From: an uncultured bacterium
GTDB taxonomy: Bacteria; Bacillota_I; Bacilli_A; RFN20; CAG-826
DNA length: 64,000 bases
Assembly: GCA_949285455.1 (NCBI GenBank)
Contig: CASDXP010000002.1
Span: 10,188 to 74,187 of the forward strand
Direction of reading: 5' to 3'
Positions 32,710 through 37,087 of the stretch are shown piece after piece. The translations under genes and the position numbers were made by a program. A model generated the notes under the pieces. That model had not been told where the DNA came from, searched no databases, and saw nothing but the letters and a program-made list of their open reading frames with translations. Positions within the stretch are counted from its first letter, which is position 1. Each line of letters begins with the position of its first letter.

Positions 32710-33312
32710 ATGAAATATGATTTAGATTTATTAAATTTAATTAACGAACACTACGATAAACAAAAAGTAAGTTTTTCTAAATTAGATGAAAAGACTTTAA
32801 CTGGTAAGGATTCATTTAAAGGTAAGACACAAGGGTTTTTAACATTAGATTACCATCGAAGAAATAAATTGATTAAAAGTCCTTTAACCTATGCTTATAC
32901 TTTTAGAGAAATACAAAATAAAGAAGATGAAGACTTAGTGTTAACTTACGTCTTATATTCCCCGGAGCGTTATTTTAAAGAAGATGCATCTAGATATAAA
33001 GATATTGCTTTTAAGTTAAATGAATTATTAACTTTAAAAAAAGTTAAAGATAAGAAATTAAGAAATTTATATTTATGTTTAACAAGAAACGATATCGAAG
33101 CGAAATATATTGAAATATCTGAACCTTATAACTTAAATCATTTAGTCTTCGTTTCCAGTGTTTATTTAAGAAAAGATGGCGTCCATAATTTTCATTTAGG
33201 CGTTAATGTTGTGTTCGCATCTTTAGACATATCAAAAGAAATACTTTATGTTCCCTTCAAATATTTACCAGAAGATTATAAGAAGGGGTACGAAGAAGAA
33301 TATAAAAAATAG
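32710..33312 (+). CDS. Hypothetical protein; first gene of the accessory island
   Basis: ORF of 200 aa with no recognisable motif and AT-rich codon usage. Confidence 0.4.
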   Translation: MKYDLDLLNLINEHYDKQKVSFSKLDEKTLTGKDSFKGKTQGFLTLDYHRRNKLIKSPLTYAYTFREIQNKEDEDLVLTYVLYSPERYFKEDASRYKDIAFKLNELLTLKKVKDKKLRNLYLCLTRNDIEAKYIEISEPYNLNHLVFVSSVYLRKDGVHNFHLGVNVVFASLDISKEILYVPFKYLPEDYKKGYEEEYKK

Positions 33313-33313
33313 A

Positions 33314-33631
33314 TTAAATATCTAAAATTTTATCGATGATAACTTTAATAGCTTTATTCGCCTCATTATAAGCTTCCACTAGCTTCACTTTTTTAGGTGA
33401 AAGTTCGCGGTAAGATTCACTTTCAATACCGAACAAGTAATATAAAGAAATATCTAGAATTTGTGTCACATCAACAAGAGTTTGCATCGGAGGGAAAGGT
33501 CTTCCATTCAAATATCTGGAAATTTGATATTGGGGAACATCTAATTTTTTTGCTAGTTCTTCTTGCGTGACTTTCTTTTCTTTCATCACGCGTTTAATTT
33601 TTCTAAGTATTTCTATCTCTAAATTATCCAT
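33314..33631 (-). CDS. XRE-family HTH transcriptional regulator, divergent from the Hip module. Start placed at MDNLEI.
   Basis: QEELAKKLDVPQYQISRYLNG helix-turn-helix. Confidence 0.65.
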   Translation of the reverse strand: MDNLEIEILRKIKRVMKEKKVTQEELAKKLDVPQYQISRYLNGRPFPPMQTLVDVTQILDISLYYLFGIESESYRELSPKKVKLVEAYNEANKAIKVIIDKILDI

Positions 33632-33763
33632 ATTTACATTATAACAAAAAATACAAATACTGCATAAAATAAATTTAAGATAATATTTTAATTGCATAAA
33701 ATAAAAATACCTCTTATAGTGGCGGTATAAGATAATTTTTACTGCAAAATAGGGGTGTAATGG

Positions 33764-34345
33764 ATGAAAGTTAAAACTTATTTAAAGAATTATGATTATG
33801 AAAAGATTATGCGCATACTCTATTTATTGTTCGCTTATAGCTTACCTAGACAAACATATATGCCTTCCATAGCAATAGAAGTTTTAACCTGTAATCTTGA
33901 TAATATCTCTAAAACCTATAAAGAAAAAATGATCGAAGATATTAATTCATATTTAGCGAAAGTATTAAAGAATGAAAAAAGATACGATAGTTATGCTTTG
34001 GAATGGTTGGAGTTCAAAGAAAAACTTATCGCTTCATTAAGTCAAGAATCTACGAAACATTATTTTCTTTTGTGCCAAGAATCTAAGTATGATGTGGTTT
34101 TTACATCGTGCGTTAGATGTTTTCTTTTTTATCATTACGAAGGTAAGGAAAAAATATTTAATATGTTCGATGAAATAAAAGATTCTTTAATGAATAAAAC
34201 CTTACAAATTATGGAAAGAGATATAAGAGAAGAAATATATCGACCATATCCTTTTTTATCTCCTAAAGAATGTGAGGAGCGGGAGAATTTTCACCAAAAA
34301 GTTTTAACTTTGTTAATAGAAAGAAATATAAAAAAATGGAATTAA
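33764..34345 (+). CDS. Hypothetical protein, first gene of the Hip-like operon
   Basis: ORF of 193 aa with no HTH detected; 4 bp from the HipS-like gene. Confidence 0.4.
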   Translation: MKVKTYLKNYDYEKIMRILYLLFAYSLPRQTYMPSIAIEVLTCNLDNISKTYKEKMIEDINSYLAKVLKNEKRYDSYALEWLEFKEKLIASLSQESTKHYFLLCQESKYDVVFTSCVRCFLFYHYEGKEKIFNMFDEIKDSLMNKTLQIMERDIREEIYRPYPFLSPKECEERENFHQKVLTLLIERNIKKWN

Positions 34346-34349
34346 AATT

Positions 34350-34673
34350 ATGAAAAACGCGAATGTGTATTGTGATGATTTTTTAGCCGGAGTCCTTATT
34401 CAAGATGATAGTGGTTTTACTTTTGCTTATCTTGATGAATATTTAAATAGTGAAAACGCAAGAGCAATTTCTTTAACTTTACCATTAAGAAAAGAACCAT
34501 TTAGAAGTAAGCACTTATTTCCTTTCTTCGATGGCTTAATTCCTGAAGGATGGTTACTTGATTTAACGTGTTCTTACTTTAACTTAAATTGTTTAGACCG
34601 TATGTCTATCTTATTAAAAATTGGAAAAGATGTAGTGGGTAATGTTGTAGTGGAGGAAATAAAAGATGAATAA
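34350..34673 (+). CDS. HipS-like protein, a stand-alone HipA N-terminal (couple_hipA) domain
   Basis: FFDGLIPEGWLLD...IGKDVVGNVVV matches the HipA N-subdomain with its LPEG motif. 107 aa; overlaps the next gene by 8 nt. Confidence 0.8.
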   Translation: MKNANVYCDDFLAGVLIQDDSGFTFAYLDEYLNSENARAISLTLPLRKEPFRSKHLFPFFDGLIPEGWLLDLTCSYFNLNCLDRMSILLKIGKDVVGNVVVEEIKDE

Positions 34674-35547
34674 ATATTGTTCTTGTTGTGGAAAGAAACT
34701 AGAAGTTAATAATAAATCGGATTGGTGCGACCCTTGTATCTATAAATTCTTTGGAACGCATACTTTACCTGACTTTTCTTCAATTGAAGAAGATAGTAAA
34801 AACTTATCGATCGATCATTTAAGTAAAGGCTATGCGATTCAAGGTGTACAAAAAAAGATATTACATTCTAATTACGTCATTAAATTTAACAATGAACGTT
34901 TTCCTAACATTGTTCTTCTAGAACATGTTTTGATGTCGATAGCGGAATCTTCACATATCGAAGTCGTGCCTCATGCAATTATAAAGGTTAAAGATGATAG
35001 ATATATTTATATAACGAAAAGGATTGATAGAAGTGGTGAGAAAAAATATCCGATGGAAGATTTTTGCCAACTTTCAAATAAACTCACAGAATATAAATAT
35101 AATGGTTCTTATGAACTTTGTTATCGCTTACCTTTATCTTATTCTTCACAAAGAACAATTGATTCATTAAAGTTTTTTAATATCGTGTTATTTTCTTATC
35201 TAACTGGTAACACTGATATGCATTTAAAGAACTTTTCTTTAATTGATCAAAGCCAAGGCTATAAACTCGCTCCAAGCTATGATCTTGTTCCTTCCGAATT
35301 TATTATCGATCAAAAAGAAATGGCTTTATCATTAAATGGGAAAAGACAAAATCTTACAAAGAATGATTTTATTCATTTTGGTGAATATATGAATATTAAT
35401 AAAGCCCAATCTAAGTTATTAATTGAAAGAATGATTAATAACCAATCAAAGTGGTTTACGATTATAGATCATTCGCCGTTAGATGAAGAAACTAAAGACA
35501 AATACAAACAATTTCTCAAAAATAAAATTGATAAGTTTAATGACTAA
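34666..35547 (+). CDS. HipT/HipA-like Ser/Thr kinase toxin core with an N-terminal CxxC-x9-CxxC zinc ribbon
   Basis: GNTDMHLKNFSLI...LAPSYDLVPS catalytic motifs of the HipA C-terminal domain. P-loop-like IQGVQKK. N-terminus CSCCGKKLEVNNKSDWCDPC. Confidence 0.85.
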   Translation: MNKYCSCCGKKLEVNNKSDWCDPCIYKFFGTHTLPDFSSIEEDSKNLSIDHLSKGYAIQGVQKKILHSNYVIKFNNERFPNIVLLEHVLMSIAESSHIEVVPHAIIKVKDDRYIYITKRIDRSGEKKYPMEDFCQLSNKLTEYKYNGSYELCYRLPLSYSSQRTIDSLKFFNIVLFSYLTGNTDMHLKNFSLIDQSQGYKLAPSYDLVPSEFIIDQKEMALSLNGKRQNLTKNDFIHFGEYMNINKAQSKLLIERMINNQSKWFTIIDHSPLDEETKDKYKQFLKNKIDKFND

Positions 35548-36853: not shown

Positions 36854-37087
36854 ATGATGATGTCAGATGAAGAAATTTTAGTAGCCTATTTTGGTGGTAG
36901 ACCTCGTTGGAGCGGTAATAAGCTTGATCGCATTGGTGATTTAAGAGTTCATTATAGCGGAAGTCGTATCTACAAAGTAGGGGATGCAAGAATTGAATAT
37001 TCCGGTAATAAGCTTTATAAGGTCAACGGTGAAAGAGTCCAGTGGAGTGGCTCTAGTGTGTATAAGATTGGTAATAGAAGGTTATAA
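36854..37087 (+). CDS. Small protein (77 aa) made of four 15-aa tandem repeats
   Basis: Repeat R-x-x-[WY]-SG-x-x-[LIV]-YK-[VI]-[GN] occurs four times. Strong RBS AAAGGAGGA. Confidence 0.6.
   Translation: MMMSDEEILVAYFGGRPRWSGNKLDRIGDLRVHYSGSRIYKVGDARIEYSGNKLYKVNGERVQWSGSSVYKIGNRRL

What the first reader, a model, noticed from the sequence alone, without database searches (positions are those of the whole stretch)
33314..35547. Split HipA toxin module: stand-alone HipS-like N-domain plus a HipT-like kinase with a zinc ribbon, and a divergent XRE regulator
HipA is split into two translationally coupled genes: a 107-aa HipA N-subdomain (LPEG motif) and a 293-aa kinase core (GNTDMHLKNFSL, APSYDL). 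This mirrors the tripartite HipBST organisation, in which HipS is the antitoxin. Two features are unusual. The kinase carries an N-terminal CxxC-x9-CxxC zinc ribbon, which canonical HipA and HipT lack. The HTH component is encoded divergently rather than first in the operon, and a 193-aa protein of unknown function occupies the first operon position. Two 13-bp direct repeats TGCATAAAATAAA (33661-33673 and 33693-33705) in the divergent promoter region are candidate operators.
Basis: partly seen in the sequence, partly recalled or inferred. Interest (0 to 1): 0.65.

Follow-up and report, generated by a model that had tools for sequence, protein, structure and literature searches.

The report
HipS–HipT toxin module with swapped regulator
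This is a split HipA-type kinase toxin–antitoxin module (HipS antitoxin plus HipT kinase) of a widespread, known kind, in which the usual HipB regulator has been replaced by a rare two-gene cassette, and whose "zinc ribbon" is a family-wide metal-binding form of the HipT N-terminal mini-domain that the HipT papers I read do not describe as zinc-binding.

Summary
A 107-aa Couple_hipA protein (HipS) overlaps a 293-aa HipA_C kinase (HipT) by 8 nt. A 193-aa gene precedes them, and an XRE-type HTH gene (really 105 aa) is divergent. The Cys spacing is C-x2-C-x12-C-x2-C, not x9.

The split and the Cys cluster are not unusual. In 81 of 85 related loci a kinase with this knuckle follows an overlapping hipS. 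Of the 120 best homologs, 114 have C2HC and 4 have C4. [quoted passage not shown]

What is unusual:
- 69 of 75 family loci have an adjacent co-directional hipB. This clade has a divergent HTH-105 plus ORF193 instead. That gene pair recurs in three other lineages with different downstream genes.
- Near-identical genomes carry either hipB or the cassette. The exchanged block runs through hipS to about codon 76 of hipT.
- This clade's kinase has a ~17-aa N-lobe deletion. The window's kinase also has no Ser/Thr beside the Gly-rich loop.
- The two 13-bp repeats share a TGCA(T/A)AA core conserved in all cassette promoters.

ORF193's role is unknown. Verdict: a new variant of a known kind, of moderate interest.

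The parts
33314..33631 (-). HTH-105: an XRE/CI-type helix-turn-helix regulator of 105 aa, transcribed divergently. It has a conserved C-terminal domain ending IIDKILDI.
   Evidence: Pfam HTH_3 8.8e-11; the best NCBIfam hit is RstR-type repressor at 3.3e-11, below that family's cut-off. It is called as 105 aa in every related locus. dN/dS is 0.11. It is 59-61% identical to the partners of distant ORF193 homologs. There is no Shine-Dalgarno sequence.
33632..33763 (.). The 132-bp divergent control region.
   Evidence: It is alignable with L001 and L003, and shares TGCA(T/A)AA repeats with L085, L086 and L089.
33661..33673 (+). Repeat 1 (TGCATAAAATAAA), a candidate operator at the -35 position of the HTH-105 promoter.
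   Evidence: The core is conserved in L001, L003, L085, L086 and L089. The promoter geometry was read from the sequence.
33693..33705 (+). Repeat 2 (TGCATAAAATAAA), a candidate operator overlapping the -35 (TTGCAT, 33692-33697) of the ORF193-hipS-hipT promoter.
   Evidence: TTGCAT-17 nt-TATAGT (-10 at 33715-33720) was read, and the same layout is kept in L001 and L003. The consensus scan did not list it.
33638..33646 (-). Extended -10 (TGtTATAAT) for HTH-105, ending 6 nt before its ATG. This suggests a leaderless mRNA.
   Evidence: Read from the sequence. The equivalent ATTATAAC element is conserved next to the HTH start in L001, L003 and L086. This is an inference.
33764..34345 (+). ORF193: an orphan all-helical protein with two similar halves. 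It is the first gene of the operon, and its function is unknown.
34350..34673 (+). hipS: a stand-alone HipA N-subdomain-1 of 107 aa, the predicted antitoxin. It carries the PEGW motif (E66, W68).
   Evidence: Couple_hipA 1.9e-23. PDB matches: HI_0666 7.8e-13, HipS(Lp) 2.1e-12, HipS(Ec) 4.7e-11. Trp65 of E. coli HipS is the inhibitory residue (PMC10627512).
34666..35547 (+). hipT: a HipA_C Ser/Thr kinase of 293 aa, the predicted toxin.
   Evidence: HipA_C 4.2e-41. HipT(Lp) 1.2e-34. K73, D184, H186, N189 and D206 are invariant in the family. dN/dS is 0.11-0.23.
34678..34737 (+). Zinc knuckle (C5, C8, C21, C24), corresponding to the HipT N-terminal mini-domain. This is the all-Cys variant of the family's C2HC site.
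   Evidence: 114 C2HC, 4 C4. It aligns to the E. coli HipT mini-domain. Solved HipTs have C..L/T...YS..G at these positions. There is only a faint resemblance to the first Zn module of LIM domains (E about 1).
34834..34872 (+). Gly-rich loop A57-I-Q-G-V-Q-K-K64, directly followed by the site of a ~17-aa deletion that is specific to this clade.
   Evidence: A loop-to-Lys spacing of 5 aa rather than 17-23 aa is found only in P0001-P0005. The A-x-Q prefix (no Ser/Thr) is found only in P0001 and P0002.

Best explanation
The locus is a HipBST(Lp)-type split-kinase toxin-antitoxin module. It sits at a recombination hotspot, at the edge of a defence island, in an uncultured low-GC gut bacterium that is probably Bacilli-like.

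**HipT** (293 aa) is the toxin kinase. Its first ~30 residues form a single zinc knuckle. In the family this is C2HC; here it is C4. It is the metal-stabilised form of the HipT N-terminal mini-domain.

**HipS** (107 aa) is translationally coupled to HipT. It is the antitoxin and is expected to hold the Gly-rich loop inactive through its PEGW tryptophan, as in E. coli HipBST.

**The regulator has been swapped.** In this clade the canonical first gene, hipB, has been replaced by recombination with a portable two-gene cassette:
- HTH-105, a divergently transcribed and probably leaderless CI/XRE-like repressor.
- ORF193, the first gene of the regulated operon.

HTH-105 is proposed to bind the two TGCATAAA-core sites. 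One overlaps the -35 of the ORF193-hipS-hipT promoter. The other lies at the -35 of its own promoter. It would thereby repress the toxin operon and autoregulate.

**The exchanged block** includes hipS and the first ~75 codons of hipT (knuckle, Gly-rich loop, indel). The regulatory front end of the system is therefore exchanged as a unit on a constant catalytic core.

**ORF193** is most likely an accessory regulator or adaptor. It is dispensable for keeping hipST.

**Shown:** domain identities, gene order, family-wide ligand conservation, cassette recurrence, the mosaic, and purifying selection.

**Inferred:** zinc binding, operator and promoter function, leaderless transcription, toxicity and neutralisation, a defence role, and any role for ORF193.
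For: - Domain identity.
- Family-wide knuckle plus overlapping hipS: 81 of 85 loci. C5, C8 and C24 are invariant and W20/H21 are at least 90% conserved. Ligand counts are 114 C2HC and 4 C4 of 120.
- Homology of the knuckle to the mini-domain, and loss of ligands in solved HipTs: with PMC10627512 for the mini-domain.
- Canonical hipB in 69 of 75 loci. No hipB remnant here.
- Same chromosomal site with three architectures.
- Mosaic between L003 and L002: 98-100% identity up to the ORF200 stop; regulators unalignable; hipS and the 5' end of hipT 65-81%; then 96-100% from about codon 76. Flank dS is 0.03-0.08 against 0.76 for hipS.
- The HTH-105 + ORF193 pair recurs with other cargo, with HTH identity about 60% and ORF193 identity about 30%.
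- The TGCA(T/A)AA repeats are conserved in all cassette promoters and are palindromic in L086 and L089. The exact 13-mer occurs only here in the window.
- Start contexts.
- Selection.
- Defence-island neighbours.
- HipA-family kinases have been validated in phage defence (PMC13092281).
Against: - No experiment and no complex model supports HipS-HipT binding here.
- The kinase lacks ~17 residues of the N-lobe just after the Gly-rich loop, and has no Ser/Thr at either autophosphorylation position. Its activity and regulation may therefore differ from characterised HipTs.
- The promoter scan did not flag the proposed promoters, and promoter-like hits in this AT-rich region are no more frequent than in shuffles.
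- The TGCATAAA 8-mer is only mildly enriched window-wide (9 observed against 5.1 expected).
- HTH-105 is unrelated to HipB, and nothing shows that it contacts HipT.
- ORF193 gave no functional clue.
- More distant HTH-105 relatives pair with unrelated proteins.
Confidence: 0.75

Rival explanations
1. ORF193 is a true third component of the toxin system. It would be a protein partner replacing HipB's protein-protein role, for example by binding the HipT zinc knuckle or N-lobe, or HipS. HTH-105 would then supply only the DNA binding.
For: - ORF193 sits in HipB's position, 4 nt upstream of hipS.
- It travels in the same recombination block as hipS and the HipT N-terminus.
- The clade that has it also has the N-lobe deletion and, mostly, the C4 site.
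- It is under purifying selection.
- In L086 and L087 another HipA_C kinase lies about 1.5 kb downstream of the ORF193 homolog.
Against: - ORF193 homologs occur with unrelated cargo and without hipS-hipT.
- L001 has lost ORF193 cleanly yet keeps intact hipS-hipT and HTH-105.
- There is no similarity to HipB or to any known antitoxin.
Confidence: 0.15
2. HTH-105 + ORF193 is an autonomous module, such as a phage- or satellite-derived repressor/early-gene switch or a separate TA-like pair. It would have landed next to hipS-hipT by chance in a hotspot, with only incidental read-through into hipST.
For: - The pair is portable and keeps its own control region.
- The N-terminal half of ORF193 matches a phage protein family, phrog_11947.
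- HTH-105 best resembles RstR/CI-type repressors.
- The layout is a leaderless repressor with divergent promoters.
Against: - No ORF193 relative was found in 50,697 phage genomes or in IMG/VR.
- In every lineage the gene downstream of ORF193 abuts or overlaps it.
- hipB is absent, so hipS-hipT has no other regulator or evident promoter.
- In L001 the deletion places hipS directly behind ORF193's ribosome-binding site and promoter.
Confidence: 0.15
3. The kinase in this clade is catalytically impaired or repurposed. The N-lobe deletion and the loss of both Gly-rich-loop Ser/Thr residues would mean that it no longer acts as a classical HipT toxin.
For: - The ~17-aa deletion after the Gly-rich loop is unique to P0001-P0005 among 120 homologs. 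The A-x-Q prefix occurs only in P0001 and P0002.
- Pseudogenised hipT copies exist elsewhere in the family (L006, L021).
Against: - All catalytic and ATP-binding residues are intact.
- dN/dS among the deletion-bearing alleles is 0.11-0.23.
- hipS is retained and coupled in all of them.
- In E. coli HipT, single phospho-ablative variants still autophosphorylate, so loss of one site does not by itself inactivate the kinase (PMC10627512).
Confidence: 0.15
4. The Cys cluster is an artefact of a mis-called start codon, and the real protein begins downstream.
For: None found.
Against: - GGAGGA lies 8 nt before the ATG.
- There is no in-frame start codon before the Gly-rich loop (read).
- The ligands are conserved in 118 of 120 homologs and in 81 of 85 loci.
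- The motif is retained internally in fused HipS-HipT proteins (L030, L065).
Confidence: 0.01

Closest known systems
HipBST of Legionella pneumophila (Lpg2368-2370; PDB 7VKB, 8EZR)
   Same: It has a stand-alone HipS overlapping a HipT kinase that lacks N-subdomain-1. It gives the best sequence match (1e-34; 7e-73 with the family profile). It belongs to the same subclade that Lin et al. 2023 (PMC10653801) report as widespread outside the Gammaproteobacteria.
   Different: - HipT(Lp) keeps only the first Cys of the knuckle (MKHC-PIT...YS..G).
- It has an S-V-Q loop with an autophosphorylated Ser54.
- It has no N-lobe deletion.
- It has a co-directional hipB overlapping hipS by 4 bp.
HipBST of E. 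coli O127:H6 (PDB 7AB3-5)
   Same: It has the tripartite logic, with HipS as the antitoxin. The HipS PEGW tryptophan is present here too. Its N-terminal mini-domain (residues 1-41) aligns with the knuckle.
   Different: - It is only distantly related (2e-8).
- Its mini-domain has no metal ligands beyond C4.
- It has an S-I-S loop.
- HipB is first in the operon and bridges two HipST units.
Canonical HipBA (E. coli K-12, Shewanella oneidensis)
   Same: The kinase core and catalytic motifs are the same. HipS corresponds to HipA N-subdomain-1.
   Different: There it is a single 440-aa polypeptide, HipB is the antitoxin, and there is no mini-domain or knuckle.
The other Hip organisations of Gerdes et al. 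2021 (hipJS, hipIN, hipMP, hipRF/RG, hipH; PMC8262856)
   Same: These also have short core kinases with HipS-like or alternative partners, and some have alternative HTH regulators (HipR).
   Different: In hipJS, hipIN and hipMP the partner gene lies downstream of the kinase. HipR is Stl-like and co-directional. None of the ten organisations is a divergent XRE + unknown gene + hipS + hipT.
Divergent CI/Cro- or RstR-type repressor switches of phages and satellites
   Same: There is a small XRE repressor, probably leaderless. It is transcribed divergently from the operon it controls, with repeated operators across both promoters.
   Different: No phage context was found. The similarity to RstR is below that family's cut-off. 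Function has not been tested.
The first zinc module of LIM domains (C-x2-C-x16-23-H-x2-C)
   Same: It has the same ligand pattern, including the Trp before the His.
   Different: The match is not significant (E about 1). Here there is a single module rather than the double LIM finger. This is a resemblance only.

Membership tests
HipBST tripartite TA system | [quoted passage not shown] | tested here: met
   HipA_C 4.2e-41 over residues 58-260. G60/Q62/K64, K73, D184/H186/N189 and D206 are invariant in the family. HipT(Lp) 1.2e-34.
HipBST tripartite TA system | HipS: a stand-alone ~100-aa Couple_hipA protein encoded immediately upstream of hipT and overlapping it | tested here: met
   Couple_hipA 1.9e-23 with an 8-nt overlap. 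Matches solved HipS proteins.
HipBST tripartite TA system | HipB: an HTH protein encoded first in the same operon, adjacent to hipS | tested here: not met
   The HTH gene is divergent and is not related to the family's HipB. In one search, phmmer with the window's HTH against the upstream ORFs of the family loci retrieved only L001's divergent HTH. No hipB remnant was found by tblastn. 69 of 75 relatives do have an adjacent hipB.
HipBST tripartite TA system | Ser/Thr beside the Gly-rich loop (the S-psi-S, S/T-psi-T or S-psi-Q autophosphorylation site) | tested here: not met
   The loop reads A57-I-Q59-G-V-Q-K-K. The A-x-Q prefix occurs in only 2 of 120 homologs. The motif classes are from PMC10627512.
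HipBST tripartite TA system | HipT is toxic through its kinase activity, and is neutralised by HipS rather than by the HTH protein | not testable with these tools
   This needs expression and rescue assays. The only supporting fact is the conserved PEGW tryptophan in HipS.
Canonical HipBA | A single ~440-aa HipA with a fused N-subdomain-1, and HipB as the upstream antitoxin | tested here: not met
   There are two separate ORFs, with a stop codon and an 8-nt overlap, and no hipB.
hipJS / hipIN type (Gerdes 2021, clade XI) | The HipS-like partner is encoded downstream of the kinase | tested here: not met
   hipS is upstream here. The downstream gene is a Fic protein, 256 bp away.
Structural zinc knuckle (C2HC/C4) | Four conserved metal ligands in two pairs with x2 spacing | tested here: met
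   C5, C8 and C24 are invariant. Position 21 is His in at least 90% of members and Cys here.
Structural zinc knuckle (C2HC/C4) | Actual zinc binding and tetrahedral geometry | not testable with these tools
Metal analysis is needed.
Autoregulated type II TA operon | A repressor binding repeated operators that overlap the promoter | tested here: inconclusive
   There are two exact 13-mers 32 bp apart, found only here in 64 kb. The core is conserved across cassettes. One overlaps a TTGCAT-17-TATAGT promoter read by eye. The consensus scan showed no excess of promoter-like sites. Binding has not been tested.

The most novel reading that the evidence does not exclude
The zinc-knuckle mini-domain, the Gly-rich-loop region, HipS and the upstream regulator would together form an exchangeable sensor/specificity module, which recombination shuffles onto a constant HipT catalytic core. 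In this clade the module would have been rewired to a previously undescribed HTH-105/ORF193 switch that licenses the kinase in response to a signal other than the one HipB-type systems respond to, for example phage infection. ORF193 would then be a new class of trigger or adaptor protein. The knuckle would be the long-sought functional handle of the HipT mini-domain.
Probability: 0.15. Interest if true: 0.75.

Novelty: new variant of a known kind. Interest (0 to 1): 0.48.

Why it matters
**The mini-domain.** HipBST is a recently characterised TA family, and the HipT N-terminal mini-domain is explicitly described as "of unknown significance" (PMC10627512). In most members of the large Legionella-type clade this mini-domain is a strictly conserved C2HC zinc knuckle, and the two solved HipTs are ligand-less derivatives. 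That gives a concrete, testable handle on the domain through metal binding and Cys/His mutants. It also suggests that the structural models now in use are atypical for the family.

**The mosaic.** The breakpoint at about codon 76 of hipT shows that the antitoxin, the kinase's antitoxin-facing N-terminus and the regulator are exchanged together between near-identical genomes. This is a pattern of modular diversification expected for systems under conflict-driven selection.

**The cassette.** The HTH-105/ORF193 pair adds a gene organisation that is not among the ten Hip organisations catalogued in 2021. It is a rare orphan pair that drives different cargos.

**Caveat.** None of this changes the basic classification. 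It is a HipS-HipT toxin-antitoxin module.

Tried and rejected
- **Mis-called start for the Cys cluster.** Rejected.
- **"The zinc ribbon is unique to this gene."** Rejected. It is family-wide.
- **ORF193 as an insertion in the window.** Deletion in L001 is more likely. L003 and L004 also carry ORF193, and the L001 junction keeps ORF193's ribosome-binding site and ATG fused in front of hipS.
- **ORF193 function.**
  - Pfam, NCBIfam and PADLOC gave nothing meaningful.
  - PHROGs gave only an unknown-function family.
  - The first AF2 model was poor (pLDDT 62), and its Foldseek-PDB search gave nothing with E <= 0.001.
  - AFDB50 was unavailable.
- **Internal duplication of ORF193.** hhalign support is weak (probability 7%), so this remains a suggestion only.
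- **ORF193 relatives elsewhere.** None in phage genomes, IMG/VR or JGI metagenomes. The first metagenome attempt failed for lack of a conserved stretch.
- **Generalising the HTH-105 / ~190-aa partner pairing to distant HTH relatives.** Rejected. Those partners are not ORF193 homologs.
- **Cargo proteins of other cassettes (389-393 aa, 269 aa, 232 aa).** No family or PDB match.
- **Mapping the N-lobe deletion onto the HipB-HipT interface.** The paper gives no residue-level interface.
- **Organism name.** The cluster look-up gave no names, and the window's own contig was not retrievable.
- **Scripts.** The first dN/dS script timed out and was rerun successfully.
Full report
**1. Observation**

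The ORF map matches the finding:
- a divergent HTH ORF at 33314-33697 (-)
- a 193-aa ORF at 33764-34345 (+)
- a 107-aa ORF at 34350-34673 (+)
- a 293-aa ORF at 34666-35547 (+), overlapping the previous one by 8 nt

The 107-aa protein matches Couple_hipA at 1.9e-23 and TIGR03071 at 7.9e-26. The 293-aa protein matches HipA_C at 4.2e-41. The HTH protein matches HTH_3 at 8.8e-11. ORF193 matches nothing.

Two corrections are needed:
- The cysteines are C5-x2-C8-x12-C21-x2-C24, not x9.
- The HTH gene is 105 aa, starting at the ATG at 33631. Every homolog is called at that length.

The 13-mer TGCATAAAATAAA occurs exactly twice in the 64-kb window on either strand. Both copies lie in the 132-bp divergent intergenic region, 32 bp apart.

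**2. What the kinase and HipS are**

The closest solved relative of the kinase is Legionella pneumophila HipT (Lpg2370): 1.2e-34 with the single sequence and 7e-73 with a 35-sequence family profile. E. coli O127 HipT comes next, followed by HipA. The 107-aa protein matches the stand-alone HipS proteins HI_0666, HipS(Lp) and HipS(Ec) better than it matches HipA N-subdomain-1.

HipS carries LIPEGW (E66, W68). [quoted passage not shown]

The family's catalytic residues (K73, D184, H186, N189, D206) are invariant and are present here. This is therefore a HipS-HipT pair of the Legionella-type subclade. Lin et al. 2023 (PMC10653801) report that subclade as widely distributed outside the Gammaproteobacteria.

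**3. The "zinc ribbon"**

It is not a mis-called start:
- GGAGGA lies 8 nt upstream of the ATG.
- There is no in-frame start codon before the Gly-rich loop (read).
- The motif is conserved across the family.

Of the 120 best homologs, from 6,157 hits:
- 114 have C-x2-C...(W)H-x2-C
- 4 have the all-Cys form (the window and its closest relatives)
- 2 are N-terminally truncated

In a diverse 35-sequence alignment, C5, C8, C24 and F29 are invariant, and W20 and H21 are at least 90% conserved. Across 85 loci, mostly from named genomes, 81 encode a knuckle-bearing kinase directly after an overlapping hipS. The named genomes are from gut and rumen Clostridia, Bacilli, Mollicutes-like bacteria, Treponema, Bacteroidales and Cloacimonadota.

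The family profile aligns the WHxxCIKKFFGT segment with RGYSTQGLKRLSGT of E. coli HipT. [quoted passage not shown] 2023 (PMC10627512). The deposited sequences show that both solved HipTs keep only the first Cys:
- HipT(Ec): MANC4-RIL7...Y20S21-TQ-G24
- HipT(Lp): MKHC4-PIT7...Y17S18-QR-G21

But the knuckle is the liganded form of a known HipT element, and it is the norm in this clade.

None of the three HipBST papers or the Hip phylogeny paper mentions zinc binding by HipT. The zinc-related literature searches also found none.

The N-terminal profile alone gives only faint, non-significant matches, to the first Zn module of LIM domains (E about 1). Zinc binding itself is an inference.

**4. What really is unusual: the regulator**

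In 69 of the 75 family loci with enough upstream sequence, the gene abutting hipS is a small co-directional HipB-type HTH. The window has no hipB and no remnant of one.

Syntenic relatives carry the module at the same site, between tldD/pmbA + ORF200 and a Fic gene. Three architectures are seen there:
- L002 and L005: canonical hipB-hipS-hipT
- L003, L004 and the window: divergent HTH-105 | ORF193-like | hipS | hipT
- L001: divergent HTH-105 | hipS | hipT

The window segment 33756-34345 is a clean indel relative to L001. The L001 junction retains ORF193's ribosome-binding site and ATG fused in front of hipS. Together with the presence of ORF193 in L003 and L004, this points to a deletion in L001.

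**5. Mosaic structure**

L002 and L003 come from near-identical genomes: TldD dS is 0.034 and ORF200 dS is 0.08. Their identity runs as follows:
- 98-100% up to the stop codon of ORF200
- unalignable across the regulator segment
- only 65-81% across hipS and the first ~230 nt of hipT
- back to 96-100% from about codon 76 of hipT onward

The exchanged block is therefore the regulator(s), hipS, and the HipT N-terminus (knuckle, Gly-rich loop, and the strand or strands that follow). It sits on a constant catalytic core.

Consistent with this, the window's clade has features confined to that N-terminal block:
- A ~17-residue deletion immediately after the Gly-rich loop. The spacing to the ATP-binding lysine is 5 residues, against 17-23 in all the others. 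This is found only in P0001-P0005.
- The C4 ligand set, in 4 of those 5.
- In the window and L001 only, an A-I-Q loop prefix with no Ser or Thr at either autophosphorylation position.

The deletion-bearing alleles are still under purifying selection, with dN/dS of 0.11-0.23.

**6. The HTH-105 / ORF193 cassette**

ORF193 is a real gene: dN/dS is 0.24 at dS 0.66. It is also extremely rare:
- 1 relative among 5.8 billion clustered proteins
- 8 among 1.84 billion representatives in an exhaustive HMMER search, comprising three ~194-aa proteins and four ~90-aa proteins that match only its N-terminal half

All three distant full-length homologs sit next to a divergent 105-aa HTH gene. That HTH is 59-61% identical to the window's and shares the invariant IIDKILDI C-terminus, whereas the ORF193 proteins are only about 30% identical. 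The downstream cargo differs in each lineage:
- an overlapping 389-393-aa protein with no recognisable family
- in L086 and L087, additionally a different HipA_C kinase plus a 269-aa gene
- in L089, small unknown genes and an Abi_2 gene on the opposite strand

The pair therefore behaves as a portable front end. More distant HTH-105 relatives (46-52% identity) are also divergently paired with proteins of ~190-202 aa, but these are not detectable ORF193 homologs. The generalisation stops there.

No ORF193 relative was found in phage genomes, IMG/VR or JGI metagenomes.

**7. Control region**

All the cassette intergenic regions contain two or three TGCA(T/A)AA cores. In L086 (TTATGCA-N5-TGCATAA) and L089 (TTATGCAAATTTTGCATAA) these form palindromes.

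Reading the sequence directly:
- Repeat 2 overlaps the -35 of a TTGCAT-17-TATAGT promoter (33692-33720). That layout is conserved in L001 and L003.
- On the other strand, an extended -10 (TGtTATAAT, 33646-33638) ends 6 nt before the HTH-105 ATG. That gene has no Shine-Dalgarno sequence. This layout is typical of leaderless repressor mRNAs.
- Repeat 1 lies at the -35 position of that promoter.

These promoter assignments are inferences. The consensus scan found no excess of promoter-like sites in this AT-rich stretch, and the 8-mer core is only mildly enriched window-wide.

**8. Setting**

Downstream of the module lie the following:
- a SoFic-type Fic protein (PADLOC 3.9e-42)
- a PD-(D/E)XK PDC-S26 candidate
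- a GIY-YIG protein
- MTaX1 plus a C5 DNA methyltransferase
- an AIPR protein
- three AAA_14/DUF4143 genes
- a Schlafen/AlbA_2 gene

Relatives carry GmrSD, PLD nuclease or Abi_2 genes at the same site. HipA-family kinase systems have been shown to defend against phage (PMC13092281). A defence or abortive-infection role is therefore plausible, but it is not shown.

**9. Mechanism proposed**

HTH-105 represses the ORF193-hipS-hipT operon and its own gene through the TGCATAAA-core sites. HipS binds HipT and blocks the Gly-rich loop through W68. Loss of HipS, or de-repression, frees HipT to phosphorylate a translation factor and arrest growth. The zinc knuckle stabilises the mini-domain. ORF193 is an accessory regulator or adaptor and is dispensable for keeping hipST, as L001 shows.

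My confidence in each part:
- about 0.95 for the HipS-HipT identity
- about 0.8 for zinc binding
- about 0.65 for HTH-105 acting as the operon's repressor
- at most 0.3 for any specific ORF193 role

**10. Comparison and verdict**

The module meets the HipT and HipS criteria of HipBST. It fails the HipB-first-in-operon criterion and lacks the loop Ser/Thr. It is not one of the ten organisations catalogued by Gerdes et al. 2021 (PMC8262856). I therefore class it as a new variant of a known kind.

The noteworthy points are:
- the family-wide metal site in a domain of unknown function, which the HipT papers I read do not describe
- the regulator swap to a rare portable cassette
- the intragenic recombination boundary
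- the N-lobe deletion

Noticed in passing
L030:160-1527 and L065:2593-3963: Two Oscillospiraceae loci encode a single ~455-aa protein made of HipS, a ~35-aa linker, the C2HC knuckle and the kinase. This is a re-fused, HipA-like protein that keeps the knuckle internally. L065 also has a co-directional 66-aa HipB-like ORF that ends about 120 bp upstream, overlapped by an unannotated 72-aa ORF.
   Followed up: partly
L002:4345-4470: The canonical hipB allele at the same chromosomal site has three direct repeats, AAAATAACCGATA(G/A)GT, upstream of hipB. These are likely HipB operators and are unrelated to the TGCATAAA sites of the cassette allele.
   Followed up: no
L086:6013-7684 and L087:2595-4266: About 270 bp downstream of the cassette cargo gene there is a different short HipA_C kinase (291 aa, 1.1e-15). 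It is followed by an overlapping 269-aa protein with no recognisable family. This kinase-first arrangement is reminiscent of hipJS, hipIN or hipMP.
   Followed up: partly
window 35803-60400: The window carries about 24 kb of defence-type genes: SoFic, a PD-(D/E)XK PDC-S26 candidate, GGACT, DUF5677, GIY-YIG, MTaX1 + C5 methyltransferase, AIPR and three AAA_14/DUF4143 genes. They lie between the module and a 525-aa gene followed by a Schlafen/AlbA_2 gene. In L002, a 525-aa tRNA-synthetase gene and the Schlafen gene follow the Fic gene within 0.5 kb. The window therefore carries a large variable island at this site.
   Followed up: partly
window 32710-33312: ORF200 forms the left boundary of the variable region. 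It is highly conserved (92-99% aa identity, dN/dS about 0.05) but has no family assignment, only sub-threshold SLATT_5 hits.
   Followed up: no
L006:2682-3876 and L021:2938-3869: Two Bacilli MAGs carry fragmented hipS/hipT genes split into several ORFs. These are either decayed copies of the module or assembly frameshifts.
   Followed up: no
window 36854-37087: A 77-aa ORF after the Fic gene consists of repeated 'YSG(N/S)K(L/I)YK' units. A similarly sized ORF follows the Fic gene in L001 (76 aa) and L092 (77 aa). It gives only a faint DUF7204 hit.
   Followed up: no
L095:1-3859: A distant HTH-105 relative (46% identity) is divergently paired with an unannotated 202-aa protein. That protein overlaps a 465-aa metallophosphatase, which is followed by YhcG/DUF1016 nuclease genes. 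This may be another repressor-controlled defence-type operon.
   Followed up: partly
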